Positions 16,771-37,021 of a stretch of DNA of 54,428 nt are shown piece after piece. The stretch is from a virus (taxonomy: Duplodnaviria > Caudoviricetes), in IMG/VR virus record IMGVR_UViG_3300036944_000521, positions 1-54,428 of that record. The stretch is one strand, 5' to 3'. Numbering within the stretch: the first letter of the stretch is position 1; the number at the start of each line of letters is the position of its first letter. The notes beneath the pieces were generated by a model. The model ran no database searches, was not told the DNA's origin, and was given only the letters and a program-made list of their open reading frames with translations. The position numbers and the translations under genes are program-made.

Positions 16771-16857
16771 CTGGTTGGGATTATTTTACGGAATCGAACC
16801 GTTTAAATTTAATTATGAGTTAAATTATTATCCAATAGGGTTTGCTGAAACCAACCA
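16771..16857 (-). ncRNA. CAGCA-family Y-like RNA 3 in the 5' leader of the TROVE gene
   Basis: TGGTTGG-TTT-CAGCA...CCAACCA-G; anticodon arm ATTTAA-CTCATAA-TTAAAT plus T arm ACGG-TTCGATT-CCGT. Confidence 0.8.
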
Positions 16858-16862
16858 AGGTT

Positions 16863-17489
16863 TCAAGTGTTTAGAGCGCGATGCTCTGCAAGAGTTGGGG
16901 TTTGTTTTCTAAAGTACCAAGTAGAGTGTCCGTGTACTCCGTAATGCTTACAAGTATCATCTACTGCTCGCTTTACGTCGTGCCAGTCTAGATCGTCGCC
17001 AGACATTACTCCACCTACTTTTAGCTTAGGGAACCAAGCGTTTATGTCGTCGATTACATCTTCATAGGTATGAGAGGCATCAATCATAATAAAGGAGATT
17101 GAGCGATCTTCATATGTAGCAGCAGCTTCTAATGATGTAGCTTTTACAATAGTAACGGCATCTAGTACTTGTGCTTTTTCAAGATTAGACTTAAATGCTG
17201 CAAGGAAGTCTCCACCATGATCAGCAACAACTTTAGCATGGGGTGGATCACTAAACTCATTGAGTTCAAAAATATCTACAGCATCAAAACGGATACGTTT
17301 ACCGCTAGACTTAATGAAAACACCCATAGCAGCGGTAGACTGCCCTAGAAAGCTGCCCAATTCTACGAAGTGAGCGCCGTCTTCTGAGTTAATAACCATT
17401 TCCCTATATAGGTCAATGTACCTAGAGTAGCCAAAAATATCGTGACCGTTAACATTGATATAATGTCCGGGAGTATCATCTTCTGCCAT
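16863..17489 (-). CDS. Class I SAM methyltransferase (Methyltransf_24-like)
   Basis: VELGSFLGQST, IDASHTYE and LKVGGVMSGDD motifs. Confidence 0.85.
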   Translation of the reverse strand: MAEDDTPGHYINVNGHDIFGYSRYIDLYREMVINSEDGAHFVELGSFLGQSTAAMGVFIKSSGKRIRFDAVDIFELNEFSDPPHAKVVADHGGDFLAAFKSNLEKAQVLDAVTIVKATSLEAAATYEDRSISFIMIDASHTYEDVIDDINAWFPKLKVGGVMSGDDLDWHDVKRAVDDTCKHYGVHGHSTWYFRKQTPTLAEHRALNT

Positions 17490-17504
17490 GCAGTTTCCTT
17501 GTTC

Positions 17505-17954
17505 TTACCAAAAGCTCCACACAAGATAATCACCTAGGTGATTGTGTGGATAAATTTTATTATCTATATCTTCGCCGCGAATAACGGCTCCACAGAACTG
17601 TTTATTAGCTAGTCGTACACACTTGGCAGCAGCTTGTTTAAAACCAGTATTCTTACCAGTACTATTCCACTTACCGTCACGAGTATAAGTAGCAAATTCG
17701 CGTTTAGCTTTTTCAGTAACTGCGTCAATATCTACTTCAATCTTGACTGTACGGTATCCACGAGTAGTACCATAGTGCATATGAGCATACTCAGGATAAT
17801 TTTTTAACATATACTGATAGTGCTGATCAAGTTCTTCTTGCGTTTTACGAACACGAATGTAGGGGTTACGTATTGCGCGATCAACATCGCGTTGAATTTC
17901 TTTAGTTTCCGAAGTTTTAATATAAAACTTAGGACGGCGGGTAGTTCTAGACAT
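17505..17954 (-). CDS. Hypothetical basic protein
   Basis: 149 aa; GAAGGAG RBS; begins MSRTTRR. Confidence 0.65.
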   Translation of the reverse strand: MSRTTRRPKFYIKTSETKEIQRDVDRAIRNPYIRVRKTQEELDQHYQYMLKNYPEYAHMHYGTTRGYRTVKIEVDIDAVTEKAKREFATYTRDGKWNSTGKNTGFKQAAAKCVRLANKQFCGAVIRGEDIDNKIYPHNHLGDYLVWSFW

Positions 17955-17979
17955 ATTGTTCTCCTTCTAAGCTACTAGC

Positions 17980-18012
17980 TTAGAAGTCGTCGTAATTCAT
18001 CCAAAATTTCAT
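17980..18012 (-). CDS. Putative leader peptide MKFWMNYDDF
   Basis: AAAGGT RBS; its stop lies inside a hairpin (17964-17986) that overlaps the next gene's RBS. Confidence 0.5.
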   Translation of the reverse strand: MKFWMNYDDF

Positions 18013-18029
18013 GGTACACCTTTATTTTA

Positions 18030-18103
18030 CAGTATCGCGCCTTGCGGCAGGGTTTCATTACAAGTGAAGTGCTTTTTGAGCGATTTTATGCTGTAACGAT
18101 ACT
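18030..18103 (-). ncRNA. CAGCA-family Y-like RNA 4
   Basis: AGTATCG-TTA-CAGCA...CGATACT-G; anticodon-like arm TTCA-CTTGTAA-TGAA and GNRA hairpin GCC-GCAA-GGC. Confidence 0.75.
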
Positions 18104-18110
18104 AGAATTA

Positions 18111-18267
18111 TAGTAGAAAAAGAACACAAAGCAGTTAATTACTCTGCCAAAGGGGGAGTGTATTTGCAACTACACCGATCCCTACAAACCTACAGGATTC
18201 GAACCTGTGCTTCCCTTAGTAAGGGCTGTCTATCCGCTGACGCTAAGTTTTGTATGTTCTTTTACTA
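18111..18267 (-). ncRNA. tRNA-like RNA with shortened anticodon loop inside a long closing helix
   Basis: TAGTAAAAGAACA / TGTTCTTTTTCTACTA; D arm, CCCTT-ACT-AAGGG, T arm ACAGG-TTCGAAT-CCTGT; no CCA. Confidence 0.6.
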
Positions 18268-18574
18268 ATATAATCCTTGTTAACTAGAATTATAATAGGT
18301 GGCTATCGCAGTTGATTATTCTGCTTTTGCTGGACAGCCACATCCCTGGATTATCACGCTAATCTTCGCATACTCTATTCAGTGTAAAAGTATGAAACCA
18401 CCTCAATACGACCTGACTGAGAAGAGCAGGCACTTCACCGCAACCTGCACTCGTACAACATATATTAACGGAGTATGTTGCCACACCTATGCGAGTTTCA
18501 GAGCAATCACTCTCATCTATCTCGTATTCTTTATACTACAATACATTTCAGCATTGAGCAAACTATAAGTTAAG

Positions 18575-19035
18575 TTGCGACGAGGTATTCTGGGGTCTCA
18601 AAGTGTGCGCACACTAGAAGACTTTAGGCTCCTGCAAATCAGCGGCCTGCTGATCTTGTCACTTAAGACTGGCTATTCCCTACGCCTGTAAAGCCCTTTT
18701 AACGTCTCAGCTTAAAAGATAAACTCTGCTGAATTATTTGCCCTGCCTTGGTGCATACCGTAAGCAGCTTGTTGCAAGAGTTTATCGTTAAAGATGAGAT
18801 GAGATGCCGGTTACTAATCCGGCGACACTTTATCGTAGTGTCAGATTCTGAACTGAACGGTGATATACTGTGCTATTTTGAGGCACACAGGCTGCCTATA
18901 CCCAGCTTTACTAGTATCACCCTAGTTTCTGGTAGCTCGCTGGAGTTCATCCCAGGTCGCTTGAAACAACTATAACGTGTTGCCGTACACGTGTAGACTC
19001 TACAAGCGGTTCCCTAATCCTAGGAGAAGAGGGAC
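18575..19035 (-). ncRNA. Large multi-hairpin ncRNA candidate
   Basis: No minus-strand ORF; at least eight inverted repeats, e.g. GATAAACTCT/AGAGTTTATC, GCCGG/CCGGC, GACACT/AGTGTC, GGTGATA/TATCACC, CGCTTG/CAAGCG. Confidence 0.5.
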
Positions 19036-19038
19036 AAG

Positions 19039-19106
19039 TCTCTGGGAGGATTTCAACCTCCATTCACAGAAATAAATCTGAGTCTTGTTAATTTAGATGA
19101 CAGAGA
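19039..19106 (-). pseudogene. Degenerate tRNA
   Basis: TCTCTG/CAGAGA acceptor; T arm GGAGG-TTGAAAT-CCTCC; 6-nt anticodon loop; no CCA. Confidence 0.55.
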
Positions 19107-19237
19107 AATTAGGTGATAGTTTTTTCCCATGATAGGACACTGAGCGTAAACTATCAAAGCCTTCCCCAACCTATTACTACCTGCCCGCAGGCTAGAGTTC
19201 AAAGGTATTAATACTCAGCGAGTATTAAGAGATTTAA

Positions 19238-19298
19238 CAGACTGATTTTTCCCGCTAAGGATTACATTATTAGCGATGTTTGTTGCTGAACTCAGTCT
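19238..19298 (-). ncRNA. CAGCA-family Y-like RNA 5 (minimal)
   Basis: AGACTGA-GTT-CAGCA...TCAGTCT-G; single hairpin CGCTAA/TTAGCG; first element after promoter 19318-19346. Confidence 0.75.
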
Positions 19299-19317
19299 TT
19301 GTTTTCTTCATTCTTAT

Positions 19318-19346
19318 AATATAACTGATTCTCAAGATTGAAGCAA
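19318..19346 (-). promoter_or_regulatory. Sigma70-like promoter with TTGAGAATCA spacer box
   Basis: TTGCTT-caatcttgagaatcagt-TATATT. Confidence 0.7.
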
Positions 19347-19365
19347 GAGTTATTTCACTTTAGGT

Positions 19366-19440
19366 TGGTACTGGGTAGAGGATTCGAACCTCATCTTCCG
19401 CAGTCACAGTGCAGAGTGCAACCATTACACCTTACCCAGT
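19366..19440 (-). tRNA. tRNA-His(GTG), A73 and no G-1
   Basis: Cloverleaf; loop CT-GTG-AC; encoded CCA. Confidence 0.9.
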
Positions 19441-19441
19441 A

Positions 19442-19714
19442 TTATACAAACCTAAACGTAGTATATAGCTCTTTTTCTTGTTCTGACAAACACCAGTAGT
19501 CGCATGAACACATTTCTCTTGTGTTACCGCTATCGTCTCTAACAATAACGTCGCTGCAACCATCAGACATAAGGTCTATAGGTTGCCATTCCCACTCGGT
19601 GTAATAGTCAGTTTCCAATAGTTGTCTTTTCTTTACCGCTATGTGGCGGATTATGTTTACAATGTGAATCACCAAAGTCAGCAACTTCATAGTTACCATT
19701 TTTGATTGCTTCAT
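19442..19714 (-). CDS. Hypothetical protein (true start probably later)
   Basis: ORF overlaps 19608..19943. Confidence 0.4.
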   Translation of the reverse strand: MKQSKMVTMKLLTLVIHIVNIIRHIAVKKRQLLETDYYTEWEWQPIDLMSDGCSDVIVRDDSGNTREMCSCDYWCLSEQEKELYTTFRFV

Positions 19715-19943
19715 TGAATTTCATCAAATCATTCACAATGTCAATGATAGGGGTATCCATAAATAACTCACCAGGAGAGAATTGAAAGTTAGTCAAACCT
19801 GAACCTTCGTGCTTCATCTTTTCCATGTAAACGTAACGTACCATTTCATATTTGATATTACGTTCACGCATATATTTTGCTTCATCGTCAGTGAGTCCTT
19901 CACTAGACAATGATTTCATGGTCAATTCAAATGCCTTATCCAT
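19608..19943 (-). CDS. Hypothetical protein
   Basis: 111 aa ORF. Confidence 0.6.
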   Translation of the reverse strand: MDKAFELTMKSLSSEGLTDDEAKYMRERNIKYEMVRYVYMEKMKHEGSGLTNFQFSPGELFMDTPIIDIVNDLMKFNEAIKNGNYEVADFGDSHCKHNPPHSGKEKTTIGN

Positions 19944-19961
19944 AGTGTAGTTCCATTATAC

Positions 19962-20038
19962 TGGAGCCCCCGACAGGATTCGAACCTGTAACCTTCACGT
20001 TCGTAGCGTGATGCTCTATCCAGTTGAGCTACGGAGGC
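19962..20038 (-). tRNA. tRNA-Arg(ACG)
   Basis: Cloverleaf; loop CT-ACG-AA; CCA. Confidence 0.95.
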
Positions 20039-20046
20039 GTTATTAA

Positions 20047-20724
20047 TTATTCAATAGCAGCAGTGACTAGTTTGAAGCCTTTGAAAGTTTTAGTAGCAGC
20101 ATCACTCTCAGTGCCTACAGCTACAACGCGAGCGATAGTGAAGTCGTTAGCTTCGATTAGAATATCGCCAACTTCTACGCTACCGGCTTTACCAAGATAT
20201 GAGTACGATTTACCACTCATACCGTTGAATACTACATCATAAGTAAAAGGCATTACGCGCTTTAGTTCAGCAGACATAAAAGCCTTGTAGTCACCGCTAT
20301 TTAGTTTTAGGACGTACTTGCCGTCACCGTCGATTACTAGACCTTCGCCGTATACGCTACCGTCTAGAGTTTGAAATAGTTTACCCTTCATGGGATCTTC
20401 CTTTGATTGATCTGGTCTGGTTTCAATATAAATTTCGTAGTCTGCTTCGTTTCTAAAGCTAGTAGTCCTAGCTGAGCTAACATACTCACACTGAATCTCT
20501 ACTCGCTGTGAACTATTATTCCACTGTGTATTAACTACTCGTAGAGGGGCTGTGCCTGTTTTCAGCTTAACAATCTGGCCTAGTGCAAAATTGCTTGTAG
20601 GTATTTCTGAACAAGGATTCATAGTAGCTGTTTTACCATAACGTCTACCTGACTTATTGTATACTGCATAGGCAAAAGAATTGGTTTGCCAATCGGCTGG
20701 ATTAAATTCAACTTCTTCTTCCAT
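20047..20724 (-). CDS. Hypothetical protein (start corrected to MEEEVEF because the longer ORF overlaps tRNA-Thr)
   Basis: GAGG RBS before ATG at 20724. Confidence 0.65.
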   Translation of the reverse strand: MEEEVEFNPADWQTNSFAYAVYNKSGRRYGKTATMNPCSEIPTSNFALGQIVKLKTGTAPLRVVNTQWNNSSQRVEIQCEYVSSARTTSFRNEADYEIYIETRPDQSKEDPMKGKLFQTLDGSVYGEGLVIDGDGKYVLKLNSGDYKAFMSAELKRVMPFTYDVVFNGMSGKSYSYLGKAGSVEVGDILIEANDFTIARVVAVGTESDAATKTFKGFKLVTAAIE

Positions 20725-20742
20725 AACTTCCTCGTGTTTAAA

Positions 20743-20818
20743 TGGTGCTGCTAGAGAGGCTCGAACTCCCGACACCCTGATTACTAATCAGGTGCTCTAC
20801 CAACTGAGCTATAGCAGC
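20743..20818 (-). tRNA. tRNA-Thr(AGT)
   Basis: Cloverleaf; loop TT-AGT-AA; CCA. Confidence 0.9.
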
Positions 20819-20826
20819 GTAATAAA

Positions 20827-20903
20827 TGGTGGGTGTTTAGACGTGTCCGTCAGTGTCTCCACAGCGTGTGTACGGCACGCTCTACCCTCGTAGTTTCACA
20901 CCC
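20827..20903 (-). ncRNA. CCA-ended tRNA-like RNA without a T loop
   Basis: GGGTGT/ACACCC-ACCA; arms CTAC/GTAG, AGCGTG-CCGTACA-CACGCT and AGAC/GTCT. Confidence 0.6.
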
Positions 20904-20909
20904 AAACTT

Positions 20910-20984
20910 TGGTACCCCCAACGGGACTCGAACCCGTTTCTTCTCCTTGAAAGGGAGATTACCTAACCCATAGTAGATGGGGGC
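20910..20984 (-). tRNA. tRNA-Glu(TTC)
   Basis: Loop CT-TTC-AA; CCA. Confidence 0.9.
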
Positions 20985-20991
20985 ATATAAT

Positions 20992-21076
20992 TGGTGGGAA
21001 GGTGTGGTTACGCTCCACTCCCGATTAAAGACGAGTTTTACAGACTCGCTGCCAGAACTACTGGCTTTACCTTCCC
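20992..21076 (-). tRNA. tRNA-Tyr(GTA), atypical T loop
   Basis: Loop CT-GTA-AA; long variable arm; T loop AGCGTAA; CCA. Confidence 0.8.
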
Positions 21077-21084
21077 ATATTCTT

Positions 21085-21160
21085 TGGTTGCCACAACTGG
21101 ACTTGAACCAGTGACCTAACGGTTATCAGCCGTTTGCTCTACCAACTGAGCTATGCGGCA
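21085..21160 (-). tRNA. tRNA-Ile(GAT)
   Basis: Loop CT-GAT-AA; CCA. Confidence 0.95.
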
Positions 21161-21162
21161 AT

Positions 21163-21265
21163 ATTATTTAGAAGATATACTAGTAGGACTTGAACCTACA
21201 ATCGTTATTGTCTCGCTTTTTACGGCAACGGCTTTACTTAGCCCATAGTATATCATCAAAATAAT
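21163..21265 (-). ncRNA. TGATGA-stem RNA, copy 1
   Basis: ATTATTT-TGAT-GATATACTA...TAGTATATC-TTCT-AAATAAT enclosing T arm GTAGG-TTCAAGT-CCTAC. Confidence 0.65.
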
Positions 21266-21340
21266 GGTGCCAAGGACTGGACTCGAACCAGCGACACGCG
21301 GATTTTCAATCCGCTGCTCTACCAACTGAGCTACCGAGGC
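21265..21340 (-). tRNA. tRNA-Phe(GAA)
   Basis: Loop TT-GAA-AA; CCA. Confidence 0.95.
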
Positions 21341-21362
21341 GTTATCTTTTCTTCATTCTTAC

Positions 21363-21391
21363 AATATAACTGATTCGCAACCATAGAGCAA
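21363..21391 (-). promoter_or_regulatory. Sigma70-like promoter with TTGCGAATCA spacer box
   Basis: TTGCTC-tatggttgcgaatcagt-TATATT. Confidence 0.7.
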
Positions 21392-21400
21392 GAACAGTTT

Positions 21401-21475
21401 TGGTGTGCCGAGTGGGGATCGAACCCACGACCTTGGGTTTAAGAGACCCCTGCTCTACCGCTGAGCTATCGGCGC
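21401..21475 (-). tRNA. tRNA-Lys(CTT)
   Basis: Loop CT-CTT-AA; CCA. Confidence 0.95.
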
Positions 21476-21566
21476 ATTATTTAGAAGATACACTACCTTG
21501 GCCTCGGGACTCAAACCCGCTTGGTTTAAAGGATGTGCCTCACCTGTAGTGTATCATCAAAATAAT
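21476..21566 (-). ncRNA. TGATGA-stem RNA, copy 2
   Basis: ATTATTT-TGAT-GATACACTA...TAGTGTATC-TTCT-AAATAAT enclosing CGGG-TTTGAGT-CCCG. Confidence 0.65.
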
Positions 21567-22811: not shown

Positions 22812-22862
22812 GATGATCTCCCTCGGCCTTATCGGCTGTTTTTATGTTTTCTTCATATTATC

Positions 22863-22891
22863 AATATAGATGATTCGCAACCTGTATGCAA
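22863..22891 (-). promoter_or_regulatory. Sigma70-like promoter with TTGCGAATCA spacer box
   Basis: TTGCAT-acaggttgcgaatcatc-TATATT. Confidence 0.7.
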
Positions 22892-22966
22892 GTTTAATGT
22901 TGATTTCGATCTGCTGTAGCTCGGCACCAGCACGATGCAAGAACTAAATACGTTTATCTAGTGTGA

Positions 22967-24075: not shown

Positions 24076-24102
24076 AGCAGTTATCTTCCTTTTCATTCTT
24101 TT

Positions 24103-24131
24103 AATATAGATTAAGTTTTACCAGAAGGCAA
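24103..24131 (-). promoter_or_regulatory. Sigma70-like promoter
   Basis: TTGCCT-N17-TATATT. Confidence 0.7.
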
Positions 24132-24158
24132 GAACAATTTTAAATTTTTTTATAGTTT

Positions 24159-30816: not shown

Positions 30817-30923
30817 CTGGTTCACTTTTGTGCTAAGTCGGCTGTGCTACCATTACACTACTAGGAGGAATCGAACCTCGCTCGCTGATTGGGATTGCAT
30901 AAAATTGATGCTGAACGGAACCA
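30817..30923 (-). ncRNA. CAGCA-family Y-like RNA 6 (tRNA permuted at the anticodon loop)
   Basis: TGGTTC-C-GTT-CAGCA...GAACCA-G; CCAA-TCAGC, T arm GAGG-TTCGATT-CCTC, D arm GTGT-AATGGTA-GCAC, GCCGA-CTT. Confidence 0.8.
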
Positions 30924-30932
30924 AAATTTATT

Positions 30933-32255: not shown

Positions 32256-32278
32256 AAAATTCAATGCCCCGGACTACT

Positions 32279-32397
32279 CGGCTGTAAGTTAGTTACTCTC
32301 ACAATATCATTATCACTACAATAATGCCACCGACTGCTAGCCACTCAAAGGGTTTTTATAGTAAACCACTGATATGAACAGATAAGAATAACAGCCG
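32279..32397 (-). ncRNA. Rod-like structured RNA candidate
   Basis: CGGCTGT/ACAGCCG closing helix with nested TTATTCTT/GAGAGTAA and ATATCA/TGATAT. Confidence 0.4.
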
Positions 32398-32541
32398 TTC
32401 TTCAATGGTTTTAGATGTATCAATTACTAGTTCTTCACCTAGCATAATCGCATAGTATGTAACTAAGGATTGCTCAAGGTGAGCTAGTGCTTTTTGTTCT
32501 TTTACAAGTAGTGCCATGTGTTTTCCTATTTGCTATAATTA

Positions 32542-32570
32542 AATATAACCAATAAGTCAGCAGTTAGCAA
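32542..32570 (-). promoter_or_regulatory. Sigma70-like promoter
   Basis: TTGCTA-N17-TATATT. Confidence 0.65.
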
Positions 32571-32584
32571 GTGTAAAGTTAATT

Positions 32585-32691
32585 CATGAAGGAGATCAAG
32601 AAGTTAAGTAAGCTTAAGAGTTAACAGCTCTGATCACTTACTACCGTATTGATTTGACTCAGCACCGAACAACTTATGCTGAAACCTTCAA
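32585..32691 (-). ncRNA. CAGCA-family Y-like RNA 7
   Basis: TGAAGG-TTT-CAGCA...CCTTCA-TG; long internal hairpin GATCAG..TTGATC. Confidence 0.6.
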
Positions 32692-32714
32692 GTTCTTTAA
32701 TACTGTCTGGAGTG

Positions 32715-33506
32715 TTAGCAGGACCAACTGGCTCGACAGTCAGGAAATTCGTTTTGACAGAAATTGTAAACTTCTCTGTAGAAGTTCCGCACCTTATTAG
32801 CTGTAGCTATTGATACAATCTCTTTTTTGGGAGAAACATTATAATCTTGATTATTTGTACTTTGTTGTAAATCTACACCAAGGAAGTTAGACAACCTTTT
32901 CAACTCACGGTTTTCGTTTATAGTTTCGTATATCCCGAAGTATAGCTCATCTTCGGTAAAAACTGCACGTAAGTTAGTTACAGTAACATCATACCTTGTT
33001 CTAGCAACGAATTGTAGCGAGGAGTACATTTTAAGTAACAGCAATTCATCTGATATTATCTGTTTCTTAACATCTTTTTTTGACATTCGTACTGCGCTCC
33101 AGCATCTCTCAAACGGGTCACGCATTAAGAATACAATACGGAGACGAGCGTTAATAAAGCTTAGCTCGTGACGTATACGAATCCAATCTTCTATCGACAA
33201 GGCAGCATATGATGGCGTAATGTCACCACTAAGTATGCAGTCTCCTGAAAATAACTCATTAAAGTAGCTTGAGTAGTAACCCGGTACGTTTTGCATTCTA
33301 TACCGTATTGCAGCATTCTCTACCCCATCACGGACCATAGCATCTGTAACTCTAAACTCTTTAAACATATCCGAAGAGACGGCATCCCAGATGTGATACT
33401 CTTTTTTTGCACCAAAGTTTACCCTATCAAGAGAAGAAACTGTACGGTGCAGCCACGTAGTACCGGCTTTTTGTGCTCCTACACCTAACAAAAAGGTTTT
33501 ATTCAT
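32715..33506 (-). CDS. Sulfotransferase
   Basis: GAQKAGTTWL, KE-H-WD, GDITPSY and RDPFERCWS motifs. Confidence 0.85.
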   Translation of the reverse strand: MNKTFLLGVGAQKAGTTWLHRTVSSLDRVNFGAKKEYHIWDAVSSDMFKEFRVTDAMVRDGVENAAIRYRMQNVPGYYSSYFNELFSGDCILSGDITPSYAALSIEDWIRIRHELSFINARLRIVFLMRDPFERCWSAVRMSKKDVKKQIISDELLLLKMYSSLQFVARTRYDVTVTNLRAVFTEDELYFGIYETINENRELKRLSNFLGVDLQQSTNNQDYNVSPKKEIVSIATANKVRNFYREVYNFCQNEFPDCRASWSC

Positions 33507-33524
33507 ATATACCTTATTCTATTA

Positions 33525-33599
33525 ATACTGGCAGTTAAACACACATTCTTTTAACTTGCTCGTCTTATGTCATTAGGTGACAGCAGCAAGTACCAGTAT
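33525..33599 (-). ncRNA. Three-way-junction RNA candidate
   Basis: ATACTGGTA/TGCCAGTAT; CTTGCT/AGCAAG; GTTAAA/TTTAAC. Confidence 0.45.
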
Positions 33600-33603
33600 A
33601 TTT

Positions 33604-33678
33604 TGGAGCGGGCGATGAGGGTCGAACTCACGACATTCACCTTGGCAAGGTGACGCTCTACCACTGAGCTACGCCCGC
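33604..33678 (-). tRNA. tRNA-Gly(GCC)
   Basis: Loop TT-GCC-AA; U73; CCA. Confidence 0.95.
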
Positions 33679-33690
33679 ATTTTCTAGATA

Positions 33691-33939
33691 TTAAGTATAG
33701 TCTGGTTCTTCAAAACCAGCAAGTCTTAAATTTAAAACAAAATTTTCTACTAGTAGCTTAGTCATAGCTATAGTAGCTACTAGTTCAGGATTGTCTGAAC
33801 GACGCATAATCTCGACCACCTGTTCAGCAATAATAAGGTATGCTTCATCTTCCTGAACATTAAGCATACCCCAATCAATAGGATCGCCTATATCATACTC
33901 TTGAGCAAGTTCAGCAAGATCTTTAGCATTATATAACAT
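33691..33939 (-). CDS. Hypothetical acidic protein (start MLYNAK)
   Basis: GGAG RBS before ATG at 33939. Confidence 0.55.
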   Translation of the reverse strand: MLYNAKDLAELAQEYDIGDPIDWGMLNVQEDEAYLIIAEQVVEIMRRSDNPELVATIAMTKLLVENFVLNLRLAGFEEPDYT

Positions 33940-34216
33940 ATTCGCTCCATATAGATCGTACAATGCGTTCAATTACAGTTTTAGCAGCTACACCATTTCG
34001 CCAAGTTGAGCGAGGGGCGTTATTAGCTTTACACCAAATAGCAAAATTACGACCACGAGCGTAATCAACACCCTCACGTTTAGAGGGTAGATCGTATCGG
34101 TAAGGACCAGATTTGATTACGTCTTCATAACCTAACTTAAAAGCTGCTGAAGACGCTAAACGAGTAGCACCTTGGGTAGCAGTAACTACTCGACCGCCAG
34201 AATTTACAGTATTCAT
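33929..34216 (-). CDS. Hypothetical protein
   Basis: GAGGAG RBS directly after promoter 34242-34270. Confidence 0.6.
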   Translation of the reverse strand: MNTVNSGGRVVTATQGATRLASSAAFKLGYEDVIKSGPYRYDLPSKREGVDYARGRNFAIWCKANNAPRSTWRNGVAAKTVIERIVRSIWSEYVI

Positions 34217-34241
34217 TGCTCTCTCCTCTTATCTATAATTA

Positions 34242-34270
34242 AATATAGCATATGAAAGAGGAAGAGTCAA
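34242..34270 (-). promoter_or_regulatory. Sigma70-like promoter
   Basis: TTGACT-N17-TATATT. Confidence 0.7.
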
Positions 34271-34277
34271 GAACAGT

Positions 34278-34817
34278 TTAACGTCCGAAGAACTCTGTTG
34301 GTCCAACTTTTATCGCATCAAACAAATACCAAGCAGCATTATCTTTTCCAGATCCTGCGCTATCTTCGATCCATTTAACACGACCGATTGAAACAATCTT
34401 ACGTAGCCTAGTCTTAACTAATGTGCTAGACTGAATAGTATGTATCCAGTCAGCATCAAATAGTAACCAAGTGGGGCGTAGATCAGAAAAGTGCTCTATC
34501 ATTGGGTGTAATATCTTACGTTCCCAAGGAGGATTAGTAATAATTAAATCACAGTGATTTAAGTGAGTTTCAGTTATGTCAAACGCATCTATTTCTTCAA
34601 TATCTTCGTCACTATCTCGTAATTCTATATCAGAAGCAAATGTACATTCTGAACCAGGAAATAGATTTGATATATGTTGAATTAGTCTGCCATCACCTGC
34701 ACAAGGTTCTGCATAGGTGAATGTTTCAGGAAGATGTGGTAAGAGAGCAGTTACAGCCGCCAACGGAGTTGGGTAGTAATCTCTAGGCTTACGGACATAA
34801 TCACTTCTTTTTCCCAA
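34278..34817 (-). CDS. DNA N6-adenine methyltransferase
   Basis: DYYPTP, EPCAGDG and ITNPPW motifs. Confidence 0.85.
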   Translation of the reverse strand: MGKRSDYVRKPRDYYPTPLAAVTALLPHLPETFTYAEPCAGDGRLIQHISNLFPGSECTFASDIELRDSDEDIEEIDAFDITETHLNHCDLIITNPPWERKILHPMIEHFSDLRPTWLLFDADWIHTIQSSTLVKTRLRKIVSIGRVKWIEDSAGSGKDNAAWYLFDAIKVGPTEFFGR

Positions 34818-34977
34818 TAGCTATCTCATTCAATCTTATTTGCGCGCTTACTGCTGCGTCTAATTCTTCACGTGTATACGAGAGCGATACACAAGACCAA
34901 AGCTGGTCAAAAGTTAATCCAGAAAAGTAGGCGTTGCCCACGGAGCTTCCAATATAGTTATAATCATTAATTTCCAT
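34801..34977 (-). CDS. Hypothetical protein
   Basis: Start MEINDY; overlaps the methyltransferase start. Confidence 0.5.
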   Translation of the reverse strand: MEINDYNYIGSSVGNAYFSGLTFDQLWSCVSLSYTREELDAAVSAQIRLNEIAIGKKK

Positions 34978-34983
34978 ATAAAA

Positions 34984-35143
34984 ACACACCAGCTCTTAAG
35001 CTACATGGCATACGCCAAGGAGGACGAGCTACTTACACATACCCACAGTATCAGTGTGGTGCTTTGTTAATCTTCGCCAAAAGATCAAGCCCTTAGCTAT
35101 GTCAGATTTAGTAGATTGGCGTCTACGTCAATCCTAGGTGTGC
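34984..35143 (-). ncRNA. Structured RNA candidate with possible pseudoknot
   Basis: GCACACC/GGTGTGT closing helix; hairpin GTAGA-CGCCAA-TCTAC whose loop matches downstream TTGGCG. Confidence 0.45.
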
Positions 35144-35150
35144 TTATAAA

Positions 35151-35226
35151 TGGTGCCCCAAGTAGGAATCGAACCCACGACCTGATGATTACAAATCAAC
35201 TGCTCTTCCATCTGAGCTATTAGGGC
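35151..35226 (-). tRNA. tRNA-Thr(TGT)
   Basis: Loop TT-TGT-AA; CCA. Confidence 0.95.
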
Positions 35227-35228
35227 AT

Positions 35229-35302
35229 TGGAGCGGATAGCGGGAATCGAACCCGCGTCATTAGCTTGGAAGGCTAAGGTCTTACCATTACACAATATCC
35301 GC
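35229..35302 (-). tRNA. tRNA-Gly(TCC)
   Basis: Loop CT-TCC-AA; CCA. Confidence 0.95.
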
Positions 35303-35585
35303 ATAATACAGAACCTCACGTATTGGTTCCGAGTTATCTAGCATAGCGACACTGAAAGGTCAGTGTATCTAGATTAACAATAATACGCACAATTAGCCGG
35401 AGCCGGTTGTCATATCTTTCGTTTAGTTTTACCATTAACTCCTCCAACTATTGAACTGGATGGTCGTTGTCCTCGGTAATGGCTATCTAAACTTACATGA
35501 TCAAGATTTTTACATCTAAATTGGTTGCAGTATCCATCCACAGATTTGCTACGCTGGCTCTGTTAAGCCTCGATAGAGCTAGAGT

Positions 35586-36059
35586 TTAAATTCTAGCCTC
35601 GCTAATAGTAGACCACATAATTACGTCTGCTTTAATTTGTGCCAAGGCAGGATTACTTTGTTCACCCTTACCAGGAACCCAAATTTTAAGCGGAACCTTG
35701 CTTTTACCATATTTTGCAACCATAGAGACTACACGAGGTAGAATATATGTTTGAAAACGATATTCATTTTCAGGTTTACGCTTAGCTTCAGTAGAAGCAT
35801 AAGGTTTACCCTCAATGTAGGCACGTGCTAGGAAAGTAGCACGATTTTCATTTCTTACATCCCATTTACGATGCGTGCTCAGAGAGCAGTATTTCATAAA
35901 TGCTTGATCATTCCAACGAGGATACATATCATTGTTTCCTGTTTTGTGATAATTTTGTAGTGACCAGATATATTGTTTATAAAGCTTGCGCTCTTCAAAA
36001 CGAATAATTTGAGCTTCTACGCTTAGATGTTTAGATTTAATTTTAAGTTCGACAGACAT
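35586..36059 (-). CDS. Hypothetical basic protein
   Basis: MSVELKIKSKHL..EAQIIRFEE, HRKWDVR; AAGGAG RBS inside a hairpin. Confidence 0.7.
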   Translation of the reverse strand: MSVELKIKSKHLSVEAQIIRFEERKLYKQYIWSLQNYHKTGNNDMYPRWNDQAFMKYCSLSTHRKWDVRNENRATFLARAYIEGKPYASTEAKRKPENEYRFQTYILPRVVSMVAKYGKSKVPLKIWVPGKGEQSNPALAQIKADVIMWSTISEARI

Positions 36060-36061
36060 TT

Positions 36062-36150
36062 TTATCTCCTTGATGTTATCTGTAATATATTGAGTATTTC
36101 AGTAACTGTCAAGGCTAAGGTGGCTTAATGATCTACAATTAGTATCTCCT
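36062..36150 (-). promoter_or_regulatory. Putative amber-containing uORF plus RBS-sequestering hairpin
   Basis: AGGAG-N7-TTG TAG ATC ATT AAG CCA CCT TAG CCT TGA; hairpin CCTTGA...TCAAGG. Confidence 0.5.
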
Positions 36151-36152
36151 GT

Positions 36153-36752
36153 TTATTGTTTATCTAGGTAATCAGCCATATCGTGATTTACATCAGCATG
36201 GCCTTGTTCATCTGCTCTTACAGCAATAACTACGTCTCGTAGTGTTGCAGTAGTAGGTAGTTTATAGTAGTCACGCGCAATCTTAGGTGCAGCAATATTT
36301 TCTACTTTACCAGCATCAATCTCTTCAAGATATTGTGTATAGCTGATAACGGCTTGGTCTTCAAAATAACCAATCATACGATGTGCAGTGCGCGGAAAAA
36401 ATATATATAATATAAAGTAAAAATGCCAAAAAATAAGTTGAGCTGCTAGTATTAGCAATCTTTCAAATCTAGTAGGTTTTGCAATCTGTATGAATATCAT
36501 AAGGTGCATACGTTCATTTTCAGCTTCGTCAAGCAGTGTCTTAATCCACCCACGCTCATCTGGCTGCATACGCCGTAAACTGCGTAAGTGTTGCCACATA
36601 CCTGCAACCATACCTGGTACACCAGCTACAGTCTCAAGAACAACAGCTCTATGACCATATCGTTTAGCAAAAACAGTATCAGCAAACCACCGAAAAACAT
36701 TAGTTAGGCTGTAGGCTACTCGATCTGAAAAGTTACGTGGAGCTAGTACCAT
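36153..36752 (-). CDS. aox: Alternative oxidase (di-iron ubiquinol oxidase)
   Basis: LETVAGVPGMV, EAENERMHL, GYFED-AV-SY and RADEQGH motifs. Confidence 0.95.
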   Translation of the reverse strand: MVLAPRNFSDRVAYSLTNVFRWFADTVFAKRYGHRAVVLETVAGVPGMVAGMWQHLRSLRRMQPDERGWIKTLLDEAENERMHLMIFIQIAKPTRFERLLILAAQLIFWHFYFILYIFFPRTAHRMIGYFEDQAVISYTQYLEEIDAGKVENIAAPKIARDYYKLPTTATLRDVVIAVRADEQGHADVNHDMADYLDKQ

Positions 36753-36874
36753 TTATTGACATAAATCCTCATATTTTGAATGATGTACTCTATGAGAACT
36801 TCTATCACCGATCACAGTAGGAAATAAGATAGTGTATAGTAGTTTTATCATAAGTTATCCTAAAATATTTAAGT

Positions 36875-36949
36875 TGGTGGTCCTAACAGGAATTGAACCT
36901 GCGTTAGTCTGCTTTAGAGGCAGCTGCCTTACCATTAGGCTATAGAACC
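36875..36949 (-). tRNA. Amber suppressor tRNA (anticodon CTA)
   Basis: Full cloverleaf GGTTCTA/TAGGACC-ACCA; loop CT-CTA-AA. Confidence 0.85.
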
Positions 36950-36958
36950 GTTATTTAG

Positions 36959-37021
36959 CAGGCTCATCTTGTGCTTTTTCCCAAAAAAAGTGCCTTACGG
37001 CAATGATGCTGAACTGAGCCT
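36959..37021 (-). ncRNA. CAGCA-family Y-like RNA 8
   Basis: AGGCTCA-GTT-CAGCA...TGAGCCT-G; GNRA hairpin TGCC-GTAA-GGCA and CTTTT-TTTGGGA-AAAAG (Pro-type anticodon loop). Confidence 0.8.

What the first reader, a model, noticed from the sequence alone, without database searches (positions are those of the whole stretch)
16771..37021. CAGCA RNAs display a panel of different anticodon-loop mimics
Seen: 7-nt loops CT-CAT-AA (RNA 3, Met/Ile2), CT-TGT-AA (RNA 4, Thr), TT-TGG-GA (RNA 8, identical to the phage tRNA-Pro loop) and AT-GAA-AA (RNA 2, Phe). RNAs 4 and 8 pair this with a GNRA hairpin. Known: defences such as PrrC, RloC and VapC cut specific anticodon loops. Inference: a protein-stabilised decoy library that titrates anticodon nucleases or tRNA-modifying enzymes.
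Basis: inference. Interest (0 to 1): 0.7.

Follow-up and report, generated by a model that had tools for sequence, protein, structure and literature searches.

The report
Phage Y RNAs displaying anticodon mimics
These small phage RNAs share one docking motif, probably for a neighbouring Ro60-like protein, and carry whole or cut-down tRNA look-alikes (often just an anticodon arm), which marks out a widespread, uncatalogued branch of the Y-RNA family that may matter in phage-host fights over tRNA.

Summary
The loops are real. The "CAGCA RNAs" are a genuine RNA family, best read as phage Y RNAs. The window (a cyanophage-like contig with 30 tRNA genes) holds 8 clear members and 1 doubtful one on the minus strand. 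Each has an 8-bp terminal helix, a 5' NUU-CAGCA-A / 3' A-rich internal loop, and a variable payload. Three members flank ORF 15340-16758, whose model has a Ro60 fold. One member matches Rfam YrlA (E 6.6e-7).

The same module lies beside this gene in 67 of 81 sources, and also in Felixounavirus, Listeria, Cronobacter and Synechococcus phages. Its helix covaries perfectly (66 of 66).

Payloads are full, permuted or reduced tRNA mimics. A 5-bp/7-nt CU-NNN-AA hairpin occurs in 28 of 105 unique RNAs (shuffles 5.4) and in 25 of 65 of a second set (shuffles 3.4). Among minimal RNAs it occurs in 17 of 38, against 0 of 38 with a T arm.

RNA 3 and RNA 4 carry well-supported anticodon-arm mimics. The RNA 8 loop looks more like a D-loop-type UGG hairpin, and the RNA 2 loop is the YrlA variable arm.

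The protein-partner idea is supported by genomic context. The decoy function is plausible but untested. I rate this a new variant of a known kind.

The parts
15064..15082 (-). Terminator-like hairpin plus T run that closes the Ro60-like/RNA unit
   Evidence: 7 pairs, 5 of them G-C, followed by TTTTCTT. It lies 13 nt after RNA 1.
15095..15190 (-). CAGCA RNA 1. Terminal helix AGGUUAGU/GCUAACCU, UU-CAGCA. The payload has a T-arm mimic (15145-15161) and a GCCCA-UGG-UGGGC hairpin (15111-15123).
   Evidence: The orthologue L001:7059 has the same architecture.
15201..15322 (-). CAGCA RNA 2, YrlA-type. V hairpin 15282-15294 (loop AUGAAAA), T arm 15258-15274, closed acceptor-like hairpin 15244-15257, D arm 15227-15241.
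   Evidence: Rfam YrlA RF02553 matches 15202-15302 at 41.4 bits, E 6.6e-7, below the gathering score of 69. Also. Orthologues occur in L001 and L002.
15340..16758 (-). Ro60-like protein gene (472 aa; helical repeat ring plus vWA domain with a DxSxS..T..D metal site)
   Evidence: Pfam DUF7788 1.1e-47 and DUF2828 2.8e-19. phrog_850 'RNA-binding protein' 9e-142. AlphaFold model pLDDT 76.7. The Foldseek top 11 listed rows (ranks 1-12; rank 11 not shown) are all Ro60/Rsr/TROVE entries; the best is 9KOP (deposited as 'Trove domain'; PMC12135203 gives this code for the phage phiLo Ro60 crystal) at E 8.8e-8, TM 0.54/0.55. Invariant D276, S278, S280, T349 and D381.
16771..16858 (-). CAGCA RNA 3. Terminal helix UUGGUUGG/CCAACCAG, UUU-CAGCA. 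Anticodon-arm mimic 16806-16826 (loop CUCAUAA 16813-16819), T-arm mimic 16788-16802. It ends 12 nt before the start codon of the Ro60-like gene.
   Evidence: Homologues with an anticodon-like arm plus T arm: L003, L020, L027, L049.
18030..18104 (-). CAGCA RNA 4. Terminal helix UAGUAUCGU/GCGAUACUG, UA-CAGCA. D-arm relic, anticodon-arm mimic 18054-18068 (loop CUUGUAA 18058-18064), GNRA hairpin 18038-18049.
   Evidence: CUUGUAA is kept in L001:4809, L002 (tRNA-like 4801-4872), L075:2298 and L043:4913, on different stems.
19239..19298 (-). CAGCA RNA 5. Payload is a CGCUAA/UUAGCG stem with an 11-nt loop (19253-19275). A promoter-like repeat D8 lies just upstream (19302-19348).
   Evidence: Same class in L083:297, L026:4522, L027:1398 and L001:4730.
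30817..30924 (-). CAGCA RNA 6, YrlA-like without an acceptor hairpin. T arm 30865-30879, D arm 30844-30858. It sits between tRNA-Trp and tRNA-Val.
32587..32690 (-). Doubtful member (UGAAGG/CCUUCA, UUU-CAGCA, 84-nt payload). The 3' side is not A-rich, and in the MFE fold CAGCA is paired inside a hairpin.
   Evidence: It fails the strict filter and no homologue was found.
35457..35540 (-). Member with the core variant CUGCA (UGGAUGG/CCAUCCA, AUA-CUGCA-ACCAA)
   Evidence: The orthologue L083:3376 in the closest relative's contig has the same helix and core.
36959..37022 (-). CAGCA RNA 8. Terminal helix UAGGCUCA/UGAGCCUG, GUU-CAGCA. GNRA hairpin 36991-37002, U/A-stem hairpin 36974-36990 with a UGG loop. 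It lies 10 nt upstream of a CTA-anticodon tRNA.
   Evidence: Homologues: L057:4716, L066:4568, L067:4849.

Best explanation
The CAGCA RNAs are phage Y RNAs, about 60-125 nt long. They are either transcribed from their own promoters or released from tRNA-cluster transcripts.

Each RNA has two parts:
- A constant module: an 8-bp terminal helix with conserved outer pairs U.G, A-U, G-C, G-C, and an asymmetric internal loop (5' NUU-CAGCA-A, 3' A-rich). This is the likely docking site for the Ro60-like ring protein encoded at 15340-16758.
- A variable module that imitates tRNA. It may be a near-complete D/anticodon/T body, a permuted YrlA-type T/acceptor/D body, or a single 5-bp/7-nt CU-NNN-AA anticodon-arm hairpin.

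By analogy with bacterial Ro60-Y RNA particles, the RNA would both occupy the Ro ring and present a tRNA-shaped handle to tRNA-recognising proteins. My leading guess for the anticodon-arm payloads is that they engage enzymes that read or cut anticodon loops, either as competitors or to bring the Ro-like particle to them.

Shown here: the family, its structure, its synteny and the protein fold. Inferred: RNA-protein binding and any role in tRNA conflicts.
For: Module and strand bias. A scanner finds the module on the gene strand in 105 unique strict hits, against 1 on the opposite strand. At least one strict hit occurs in 67 of 81 sources, and the window has 7. Of the 295 lax-filter hits in the 80 loci, 106 end within 500 nt upstream of the gene.

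Covariation test that is not circular. Instances were picked only by the 5' 17-mer TAGGATNNGTTCAGCAA. Of 77, 66 have ATCCT[GA] within 240 nt downstream. In 66 of 66 the two preceding bases are the exact complement of NN, across 8 NN types. Permuting NN gives a mean of 13.8 and a maximum of 24 in 1000 trials.

From motif to gene. Of 80 motif-defined loci, 22 hold the gene within 2 kb, all 22 on the same strand and 19 with the gene downstream of the motif. Of 9 further contigs searched, 7 hold it elsewhere.

Protein. The fold matches Ro60 and the vWA metal-site residues are invariant.

Link to Y RNAs. RNA 2 matches Rfam YrlA at E 6.6e-7, and L030 also matches.

Breadth. The module recurs beside homologues of 32-48% identity in Synechococcus phage BUCT-ZZ01 and Cronobacter phage S13, and in Felixounavirus wV8 and Listeria phage WIL-1.

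Modularity. In S13 and BUCT-ZZ01 the module is capped by a loop and takes the place of the anticodon arm in tRNA-like RNAs that end in ACCA. This behaves like an independent unit.

Anticodon-arm mimic. It occurs in 28 of 105 unique RNAs against 5.4 +/- 2.2 in shuffles, maximum 13 of 200, and in 25 of 65 against 3.4 +/- 1.8 in a second set. Among the 29 arms, C32 occurs in 26, A37 in 26, A38 in 24, and the stem is exactly 5 bp in 20. Among payloads of 45 nt or less, 17 of 38 have it and 0 of 38 have a T arm.

Literature (passages read).
- A P100-like Listeria phage protein that HHpred matched to Rsr is found in virions, near three very abundant unannotated transcripts (PMC12282133). I did not compare that protein with the window's; a Listeria phage named cka18 is among the tblastn hits.
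- The Ro60-like gp130 of phage Bas63, next to its tRNA genes, counters the Ppl defence (PMC11482910).
Against: No binding, expression or end-mapping data exist for this phage. The one RNA run laid gave only small pieces.

Pfam TROVE does not match the protein, and PDB sequence searches find no Ro60. The Ro60 call therefore rests on a model of pLDDT 76.7 with TM about 0.5.

The published Ro60-binding motif GNCGAAN0-1G is absent.

Only RNA 2 matches an Rfam Y-RNA model, and it scores below the gathering threshold.

MFE energies of six tested window RNAs are not better than shuffles (z from -1.15 to +0.01).

77 of 105 unique RNAs lack an anticodon-like arm.

Unique sequences are not independent lineages, so the counts overstate the number of events. 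14 of 81 sources had no strict hit.
Confidence: 0.72

Rival explanations
1. The RNAs are a protein-stabilised library of anticodon stem-loop decoys. They would titrate host anticodon nucleases (PrrC, RloC, VapC, PARIS-type and others) or anticodon-modifying enzymes, and so protect host and phage tRNAs during infection.
For: - Minimal RNAs keep the anticodon-like hairpin rather than the T or D arm: 17 of 38 against 0 of 38.
- Loops equal or nearly equal real phage tRNA loops.
- One genome carries several different triplets.
- Nearly identical scaffolds differ only in the triplet: CTTTTAA/CTTCTAA in L027/L049, and CTTTTAA/CTTGTAA and CTTCTAA/CTTTTAA on identical stems.
- In a relative about 85% identical, the RNA 3 payload is replaced by 36 other letters (table 5c). 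Read by hand, these form a 5-bp hairpin with loop CUGUUAA.
- CUUGUAA is kept on covarying stems in 5 homologues.
- Bas63 gp130, a Ro60-like protein, counters a defence system (PMC11482910).
- Competitive inhibition of an anticodon nuclease was proposed for YrlA (PMC7790460).
Against: - No nuclease or competition was tested.
- 77 of 105 members have no such arm.
- Free variation of the triplet fits equally well with selection only for the loop's shape.
- Many anticodon nucleases are said to need the whole tRNA or modified bases (recalled, not checked).
- The only defence known to be countered by a Ro60-like phage protein, Ppl, was proposed by the authors to degrade DNA.
- No RNA ligase was seen among the window ORFs scanned, which did not include every ORF.
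Confidence: 0.22
2. An RNA-decay or repair adaptor of the Deinococcus/Thermus-phage type. The RNA tethers the Ro60-like ring to an exoribonuclease such as PNPase, or to repair enzymes. The tRNA-like part mainly gives nuclease resistance or a generic handle, and the anticodon-like loop has no specific reading.
For: - This is the only mechanism shown experimentally for Ro60-Y RNA particles. It includes a phage Ro60 with two Y-like RNAs and host PNPase (PMC12135203, abstract and passages; PMC4201824 section 10).
- Listeria phage WIL-1 has an annotated tRNA-splicing ligase 1.3 kb downstream of the gene.
- The window has a kinase-type P-loop ORF at 13652-14179 that also matches a phage polynucleotide-kinase family.
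Against: - It does not explain why minimal RNAs keep precisely a 5-bp/7-nt CU-NNN-AA hairpin.
- It does not explain why CUUGUAA is invariant over covarying stems.
Confidence: 0.25
3. Decaying tRNA gene copies, or processing or regulatory structures of the tRNA-cluster and Ro60-like transcripts, with no trans-acting role. An example would be a leader that lets the protein control its own mRNA.
For: - Payloads clearly descend from, or copy, tRNAs. ARAGORN and Rfam call some embedded bodies tRNA.
- RNA 3 ends 12 nt before the start codon of the gene.
- RNA 6 lies between two tRNAs.
Against: - The constant module is conserved across phage families whose proteins are only 32-48% identical.
- The helix covaries 66 of 66.
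- Members lie up to 20 kb from the gene.
- Members exist in two circular permutations.
- Debris would not keep a common motif.
Confidence: 0.07

Closest known systems
YrlA, the bacterial and mycobacteriophage Y RNA (Rfam RF02553; Chen et al. 2014, PMC4201824, sections 5, 6, 10 and Table S2 read)
   Same: - Encoded next to a Ro60-type gene on the same strand.
- Built as a terminal helix with a protein-binding region plus a tRNA-like domain.
- RNA 2 has the T arm, closed acceptor hairpin and D arm in that order, and matches the model at E 6.6e-7.
- Several RNAs per locus also occur there: Table S2 lists 3 for phage CcrColossus.
   Different: - The score is below the gathering threshold (41 against 69 bits).
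- The GNCGAAN0-1G motif is replaced by NUU-CAGCA-A.
- The partner protein matches DUF2828/DUF7788, not Pfam TROVE.
- Most members are not YrlA-shaped. Many show an anticodon arm, which YrlA lacks.
- None of the 22 phages in Table S2 belongs to the groups found here.
Deinococcus radiodurans Yrn1 (as described in PMC4201824, sections 6 and 10)
   Same: The stem-loop between the D-like and T arms takes the place of the anticodon arm, with a 5-bp stem. The RNA ends are on the acceptor side, as in window RNAs 3 and 4 and in L002, L045, L027 and L020.
   Different: - The Yrn1 loop has 6 nt, and both strands of the metazoan-type Ro helix are kept.
- Here the loops are 7 nt with C32-U33/A37-A38, and the module is different.
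- No sequence comparison was run.
Thermus phage phiLo Ro60 with Yrl1/Yrl2 (PMC12135203, abstract and passages; PDB 9KOP, 9L5Y)
   Same: A phage-encoded Ro60-fold protein with Y-like RNAs just upstream of its gene. It is the best structural match to the window protein.
   Different: - 16% sequence identity.
- The phiLo RNAs were defined by a CGAA motif in a large bulge.
- Two RNAs there, against 8-9 here.
- No tRNA-part payloads were reported in the passages read.
Phage-encoded tRNAs that escape or neutralise tRNA-cutting defences (PMC10264068; PMC11464382; search listings and abstract starts only)
   Same: Both concern phage tRNA clusters and anticodon loops, with counter-defence proposed as the purpose.
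   Different: Those are working tRNAs that replace cut host tRNAs. The RNAs here cannot be charged as they stand: none has a full cloverleaf with a normal acceptor end in the window, and ARAGORN calls none of them.

Membership tests
Ro60/TROVE proteins (partner protein, 15340-16758) | Ring of helical repeats capped by a vWA domain | tested here: met
   The Foldseek top 11 listed rows are all Ro60/Rsr/TROVE entries, each with probability 1.00. The best is E 8.8e-8 with TM 0.54/0.55 over the full length. The model has pLDDT 76.7 and pTM 0.62.
Ro60/TROVE proteins (partner protein, 15340-16758) | Match to the Pfam TROVE domain, or sequence match to solved Ro60 | tested here: not met
   Pfam gives only DUF7788 and DUF2828. 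phmmer and a 33-sequence profile against PDB sequences find no Ro60.
Ro60/TROVE proteins (partner protein, 15340-16758) | Metal-ion site of the vWA domain (DxSxS, T, D) | tested here: met
   D276, S278, S280, T349 and D381 are invariant in 33 sequences. Assigning them to the metal site is from recall.
Ro60/TROVE proteins (partner protein, 15340-16758) | Binds Y RNA | not testable with these tools
   Only synteny and co-occurrence are available.
YrlA (Rfam RF02553) | Reaches the family's gathering score | tested here: not met
   RNA 2 scores 41.4 bits against 69 (E 6.6e-7). No other RNA in 15000-19400 matches, and there is no match at gathering level in the whole window.
YrlA (Rfam RF02553) | T arm, acceptor-like hairpin and D arm in that order inside a terminal helix | tested here: met
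   Met for RNA 2. RNA 6 has the T and D arms without the hairpin. RNAs 3, 4, 5 and 8 do not have this order.
YrlA (Rfam RF02553) | Within 4 kb of, and on the same strand as, the Ro60 gene (criterion of Chen et al. 2014) | tested here: met
   RNAs 1, 2, 3, 4 and 5 lie within 4 kb on the same strand. RNAs 6 and 8 and the CUGCA member lie 14-20 kb upstream.
YrlA (Rfam RF02553) | GNCGAAN0-1G motif near the 5' end | tested here: not met
   The 5' strand reads NUU-CAGCA-A in 93 of 105 strict hits; the rest read CCGCA (9) or CUGCA (3).
tRNA | Full cloverleaf with a 7-bp acceptor stem, recognised by tRNA finders | tested here: not met
   None of the window's CAGCA RNAs is called by ARAGORN or by the Rfam tRNA model. 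Some embedded bodies in relatives are called, namely L001 7184-7255, L002 4801-4872, L045 1441-1511 and L059 4395-4466, but their acceptor stems are weak and A/U-rich.
Anticodon stem-loop (as a structural unit) | 5-bp stem, 7-nt loop, pyrimidine 32, U33, purine 37 | tested here: met
   Met in 28 of 105 and 25 of 65 unique RNAs, far above shuffles. In the window it is met by RNA 3 (7-bp stem) and RNA 4 (4-bp stem), ambiguous for RNA 8, and weak for RNA 2 (3-bp stem).

The most novel reading that the evidence does not exclude
Large tRNA-carrying phages of several families keep a Ro60-scaffolded, fast-evolving set of anticodon stem-loop decoys. The constant CAGCA module loads each RNA onto a Ro60-like ring, which in at least one phage may travel in the virion. 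The exposed CU-NNN-AA hairpins capture or misdirect host nucleases and other enzymes aimed at particular anticodon loops. Single-base changes of the triplet and payload swaps would retarget the set as host defences change.
Probability: 0.2. Interest if true: 0.85.

Novelty: new variant of a known kind. Interest (0 to 1): 0.68.

Why it matters
Ro60 and Y RNAs are a long-standing puzzle, and what the tRNA-like half of bacterial Y RNAs binds is still unknown.

This family offers a natural dissection. The docking module stays constant while the tRNA-like half is trimmed, permuted or swapped, often down to a single anticodon-arm hairpin. It occurs in phages that can be grown and engineered, such as Felix O1-like coliphages and P100-like Listeria phages. 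One Ro60-like gene in such a phage has already been reported to counter a defence system, and abundant unexplained transcripts have been seen near another.

That makes several questions directly testable:
- What do Y RNAs tether?
- Do phages use tRNA mimics against tRNA-targeting immunity?
- What are the 113-121-nt "tRNA-Ser/tRNA-OTHER" genes of phage S13?

It also points to a gap in RNA family catalogues. Rfam 15 found only tRNAs in the window, plus one YrlA match below threshold.

Tried and rejected
- **DNA similarity.** Megablast of 16700-20700 against the phage collection gave no match.
- **Rfam.** At gathering level on the whole window it found only tRNAs. At E up to 10 on 15000-19400 the only credible hit was YrlA; the rli28, Bacilli-1, sau-63 and isrK rows have E 0.76-4.4 and I treat them as chance.
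- **PDB by sequence.** Neither the single protein nor the profile found Ro60.
- **Folding energy.** MFE z-scores for six window stretches are not significant, so thermodynamics alone does not single these RNAs out.
- **Raw CAGCA count.** It is 177 against 111 expected. The excess is spread over coding sequence and says nothing about the RNAs.
- **Rejected candidates.** Those at 18332 and 18731 have helices unlike the family consensus, and one borrows a strand from a tRNA-like relic. The one at 8594 lies in an ORF. The one at 32587-32690 is kept as doubtful.
- **Promoter scan.** The sigma-70 scan of 15000-19400 found no more sites than shuffles, 7 against 8.4.
- **Unexplained stretch.** The 1.1 kb at 18100-19240 has no similarity to any fetched locus.
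- **Expression.** One lake metatranscriptome run (X24) held 6% of the sampled words. Its contigs touch 15142-15243, parts of the gene, and 18964-19127. That is no evidence for or against expression of the CAGCA RNAs. The uncovered parts prove nothing.
- **Relative's contig.** In G001, the KTTCAGCA matches at 56235, 65021 and 67306 did not yield module hits. No orthologues of RNAs 6 and 8 were found in the pieces fetched.
- **Literature.** Searches found no paper describing this module. One search was badly posed and gave only noise.
- **Earlier scan notes.** Searches had nothing on this genome or protein.
- **Not attempted.** I did not use complex prediction, because it takes no RNA. I did not build a covariance model, because the split module with a 25-200-nt insert suits it poorly.

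Full report
**What the window is.** G000 is a 54,428-base virus record, and the window covers all of it. Almost all genes and all 30 ARAGORN tRNA calls lie on the minus strand. The Pfam and PHROG matches resemble those of T4-like cyanophages, a resemblance I draw from recall: alternative oxidase, ferritin, S-adenosylmethionine decarboxylase, Hsp20, UvdE, a 2OG-Fe oxygenase and sugar-modifying enzymes. The nearest named record for the key protein is only 47-48% identical. Megablast of 4 kb finds nothing in the phage collection.

**Rebuilding the "CAGCA RNAs".** The finding cites RNAs by number without coordinates, so I searched the minus strand. I looked for CAGCA preceded within 5 nt by a strand that pairs with a strand 25-260 nt downstream. 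Eight clear members emerge in gaps between genes:
- 15095-15190
- 15201-15322
- 16771-16858
- 18030-18104
- 19239-19298
- 30817-30924
- 35457-35540 (core CUGCA)
- 36959-37022

One more, at 32587-32690, is doubtful.

The ends of the finding (16771, 37021) match the third and last of these. The shared plan is a terminal helix of 6-9 bp, then 2-4 nt ending in UU/UA/UG, then CAGCA, then mostly A, then the payload, then an A-rich run, then the 3' strand of the helix.

**The observation.** All four loops are present (coordinates are in the observation check). The GNRA hairpins of RNAs 4 and 8 are also present. The RNA 8 loop equals the anticodon loop of the phage tRNA-Pro. CTCATAA equals the loop of all three phage tRNA-Met genes. 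CTTGTAA and ATGAAAA differ from the tRNA-Thr(TGT) and tRNA-Phe loops at position 32 only.

There are weak points. The RNA 2 loop lies outside the stated range and closes with 3 bp. RNAfold gives RNA 8 a 3- or 5-nt loop. None of six folded stretches is more stable than its shuffles (z from -1.15 to +0.01).

**The neighbouring protein.** RNA 3 ends 12 nt before the start codon of ORF 15340-16758. RNAs 2 and 1 follow its stop codon, and a terminator-like hairpin comes next.

The 472-aa product matches Pfam DUF7788 (1.1e-47) and DUF2828 (2.8e-19), but not TROVE. It also matches phrog_850 "RNA-binding protein" at 9e-142. Sequence searches of the PDB find no Ro60.

A model built from 33 aligned sequences (pLDDT 76.7) has a helical N-terminal two-thirds and an alpha/beta C-terminal third. 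The top 11 listed Foldseek matches are all Ro60/Rsr/TROVE entries. The best is 9KOP, deposited as "Trove domain", which PMC12135203 gives as the crystal structure of the Thermus phage phiLo Ro60 (E 8.8e-8, TM 0.54/0.55). vWA-only matches come only after these. The residues expected for the vWA metal site are invariant (their assignment is from recall).

tblastn finds the protein in 711 phage records. Some of these are annotated "Ro-like RNA binding protein", "putative Ro sixty-related protein" or "DUF2828 family protein".

**One RNA is a recognisable Y RNA.** Rfam's YrlA model matches 15202-15302 at 41.4 bits (E 6.6e-7), below the gathering score of 69. The alignment and the sequence show a T arm, a closed acceptor-like hairpin and a D arm in that order. 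This is the layout described for YrlA (PMC4201824 section 6).

**The module across related sequences.** The search for related loci returned 80 viral contigs whose protein is 50-67% identical. The results were as follows.
- With a lax filter, the scanner finds 306 hits (241 unique) on the gene strand and 59 (51 unique) on the other strand.
- With a strict filter, it finds 105 unique hits against 1.
- 67 of 81 sources have at least one strict hit. The window has most, with 7.
- Of the 295 lax-filter hits in the 80 loci, 106 end within the 500 nt just upstream of the gene.
- The outer helix pairs are conserved (U.G, A-U, G-C, G-C), while the two inner pairs take every Watson-Crick type.
- The core is CAGCA in 93 of 105, CCGCA in 9 and CUGCA in 3.

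Because my scanner demands pairing, I ran an independent test. The pattern TAGGATNNGTTCAGCAA was scanned over the viral collection. Of 77 distinct instances, 66 have ATCCT[GA] within 240 nt downstream. In 66 of 66 the two preceding bases are the exact complement of NN, over 8 NN types. Permuting NN gives a mean of 13.8 and a maximum of 24 in 1000 trials.

I also tested the link from motif to gene. Of these 80 loci, 22 contain the gene within the 2-kb flanks, all 22 on the motif's strand and 19 with the gene downstream of the motif. From the 58 loci without it I picked 10 on longer contigs. One was not held. Of the 9 searched, 7 carry the gene elsewhere on the contig. The other two are fragments rated 62% and 71% complete.

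**Breadth and permutation.** The module also stands beside homologues in named phages.
- Synechococcus phage BUCT-ZZ01 has three RNAs just upstream of the gene.
- Felixounavirus wV8 has at least four RNAs among the tRNA genes downstream, with an AGACC../..GGUCU helix.
- Listeria phage WIL-1 has three RNAs in the 350 nt upstream, and an annotated tRNA-splicing ligase 1.3 kb downstream.

In Cronobacter phage S13 and BUCT-ZZ01 there is a second form. These are tRNA-like RNAs with an acceptor stem, an encoded ACCA end, and D and T arms. In them the anticodon arm is replaced by the module closed with a small loop. They are annotated in S13 as a 121-nt tRNA-Ser and a 113-nt tRNA-OTHER, and the Rfam tRNA model scores them as tRNA.

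The module therefore occurs at the acceptor position, at the anticodon position with open ends, and at the anticodon position capped. That is what one expects of a self-contained docking element.

**Payloads.** Payload length ranges from 27 to 207 nt, with a median of 75. The classes seen by inspection are:
- (a) Near-complete tRNA bodies (D, anticodon and T arms) with a weak A/U acceptor stem inside the module. Some are called tRNA by ARAGORN.
- (b) An anticodon-like arm plus T arm. RNA 3 belongs here.
- (c) An anticodon-like arm plus a GNRA hairpin. RNA 4 belongs here.
- (d) A single anticodon-like hairpin.
- (e) YrlA-type. RNAs 2 and 6 belong here, and RNA 1 in part.
- (f) A CGCUAA/UUAGCG stem with an 11-17-nt loop. 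RNA 5 belongs here.
- (g) A GNRA hairpin plus a U/A stem with a UGG loop. RNA 8 belongs here.
- (h) Larger conserved bodies of 85-210 nt.

**Is the anticodon likeness more than chance?**
- In MFE folds of the 105 payloads, 66 of 233 hairpin loops have 7 nt. Shuffles give 13.4 +/- 4.1 out of about 155.
- I also searched without folding for a stem of at least 4 bp closing a 7-nt loop of form YU-NNN-R-N, excluding T-loop patterns. It finds such an arm in 28 of 105 unique RNAs. Shuffles give 5.4 +/- 2.2, with a maximum of 13 in 200.
- Among the 29 arms, position 32 is C in 26, position 37 is A in 26, position 38 is A in 24, and the stem is exactly 5 bp in 20.
- In the independently drawn set, 25 of 65 unique payloads have the arm, against 3.4 +/- 1.8 (maximum 9 in 200).
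- Among payloads of 45 nt or less, 17 of 38 have it and none has a T arm.
- Triplets seen include CAT, TGT, TTT, TCT, TGA, TAT, GTA, GTT, GGT, TGG, GAA, GCA and CGA.

One caution applies to all of these. Unique sequences are not independent lineages, and 77 of 105 have no such arm.

RNA 4 passes. CUUGUAA is unchanged in L001:4809, L002 (a full tRNA-like body), L075:2298 and L043:4913. The stems differ (UUCA/UGAA, UUUGA/UCAAA, AUUGA/UCAAU, UUGA/UCAA, UACAA/UUGUA). The rest of the payload changes from a T arm to a GNRA hairpin. Here the loop is the conserved part.

RNA 3 passes for shape only.
- The comparable RNAs with an anticodon-like arm plus T arm in L003, L020, L027 and L049 keep a 7-nt CU-NNN-AA loop. 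Their triplets differ: CGA, TAT, TTT and TCT.
- L002 has ATATAAA. L001 has a 9-nt loop that contains TCATAA.
- In a relative about 85% identical over the adjoining 400 nt (run X3), the payload between 16774 and 16842 is replaced by 36 other letters. Read by hand, these form a 5-bp stem with loop CUGUUAA.

RNA 8 does not pass as an anticodon mimic. The three homologues L057, L066 and L067 keep UGG, but in loops of 5-7 nt and in another register. UGG-loop hairpins stand at the D-arm place in other members, for example GCCCA-UGG-UGGGC in RNA 1 and L001:7059, and UGCGAA-UGG-UUCGCA in L027/L049. I read the RNA 8 loop as D-loop-like and its identity with the tRNA-Pro loop as probably coincidental.

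RNA 2 is a different element. Its loop is the variable-arm hairpin of the YrlA layout. In other YrlA-type members this hairpin is often 5 bp with a 7-nt loop, such as CUUGUAA in L030:2375 or CUUGAAA. A weaker version of the same theme may therefore exist there.

**How it most likely works.** Bacterial Y RNAs bind Ro60 through the 5' strand next to the terminal helix. Their other half tethers a partner or mimics tRNA (PMC4201824 sections 6 and 10). The CAGCA motif sits exactly where the GNCGAA motif sits in YrlA. It is the only element common to all payload classes and both permutations, and it travels with the Ro60-like gene across phage families. I therefore take it as the docking site of that protein (inference).

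The variable half presents tRNA features. That the smallest members keep just the anticodon-type hairpin argues that this hairpin is a working part and not a relic.

What it engages is open.
- The Ro60-like gp130 of phage Bas63, next to its tRNA genes, counters the Ppl defence (PMC11482910, passage).
- Authors proposed that YrlA might competitively inhibit an anticodon nuclease (PMC7790460, passage).

A tether to a nuclease or repair enzyme, as shown for Deinococcus and for Thermus phage phiLo (PMC12135203), is equally possible. Nothing here tests either.

In a P100-like Listeria phage, a protein that HHpred matched to Rsr was found in purified virions, and three very abundant unannotated transcripts lie within 2 kb (PMC12282133, passages). 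I could not check whether these transcripts are the three CAGCA RNAs seen in WIL-1, or compare that protein with the window's.

**Comparison with what is known, and novelty.** Ro60-like phage proteins with nearby Y-like RNAs are known. Chen et al. 2014 list 22 phages in Table S2: Bacillus phage G, Caulobacter phage CcrColossus and 20 mycobacteriophages with 552-aa proteins. Thermus phage phiLo was added in 2025.

None of those 22 phages belongs to the groups found here. That survey started from TROVE-annotated proteins, which this protein is not.

Several points are new as far as my searches show (Rfam 15):
- the CAGCA docking module;
- arrays of up to 8-9 such RNAs in one genome;
- the two permutations;
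- the trimming of the tRNA-like half down to an anticodon-type hairpin with many triplets.

Notes from earlier windows of this scan describe YrlA arrays beside rsr, and an exchangeable tRNA-mimic cassette in a marine T4-like phage. I did not test them. I rate the finding a new variant of a known kind.

**Limits.**
- There is no expression or binding evidence for this phage.
- The Ro60 assignment rests on a medium-confidence model.
- Payload classes were sorted by eye.
- Counts are not corrected for relatedness.
- File 5 of the Chen et al. supplements could not be searched, and bioRxiv supplements are closed. The supplement to PMC11482910 cited for the gp130-Ro60 structural likeness (Supplementary Fig. 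7E) was not seen.

Noticed in passing
window 17955-19365 (minus strand): This is 1.4 kb with no ORF over 50 aa on the gene strand. Besides RNAs 4 and 5 it holds a degenerate tRNA-like piece (about 18170-18250, with a good T arm; ARAGORN does not call it) and about 1 kb of unexplained sequence unlike any fetched locus. In relatives, 18799-18964 is replaced by other sequence, and a lake metatranscriptome contig covers 18964-19127.
   Followed up: partly
window 36875-36949 (minus strand); also L059 3340-3414: A tRNA with anticodon CTA, of amber-suppressor type (labelled 'Pyl' by ARAGORN), lies 10 nt downstream of RNA 8. A related contig has one as well.
   Followed up: no
L086 5889-6131 (Cronobacter phage S13); L084 5560-5820 (Synechococcus phage BUCT-ZZ01): The 113-121-nt genes annotated tRNA-Ser and tRNA-OTHER are tRNA-like RNAs with an ACCA end. 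Their anticodon arm is replaced by a loop-capped CAGCA module, so they are probably Y RNAs and not tRNAs.
   Followed up: partly
L088 3155-3418 and 6341-7552 (Listeria phage WIL-1): Three CAGCA RNAs lie in a stretch annotated as tiny hypothetical ORFs just upstream of the Ro60-like gene. An annotated tRNA-splicing (RtcB-type) ligase lies 1.3 kb downstream.
   Followed up: partly
window 19302-19348, 21347-21393, 22847-22893, 24087-24133, 37547-37593: There are five copies of a 47-nt repeat. Read on the minus strand, it looks like a promoter (TTGC.. box, about 17 nt, TATA-rich box). One copy sits directly upstream of RNA 5.
   Followed up: no
window 38406-39065 (minus strand): A PP-loop ATPase ORF (Pfam ATP_bind_3, 3.5e-31) lies inside the tRNA region. 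From recall, this is the family of tRNA(Ile)-lysidine synthetase, an enzyme that acts on a CAU anticodon.
   Followed up: no
window 21174-21252 (minus strand): ARAGORN reports a tRNA-like gene of undetermined identity, with a two-base anticodon, between tRNA-Ile and tRNA-Phe.
   Followed up: no
L018:4547, L030:1978, L045:4622, L047:4615, L034:4673, L050:585: A conserved class of large payloads (about 190-210 nt) inside the same CAGCA module lies 300-450 nt upstream of the Ro60-like gene in several contigs. Its structure and meaning were not examined.
   Followed up: no
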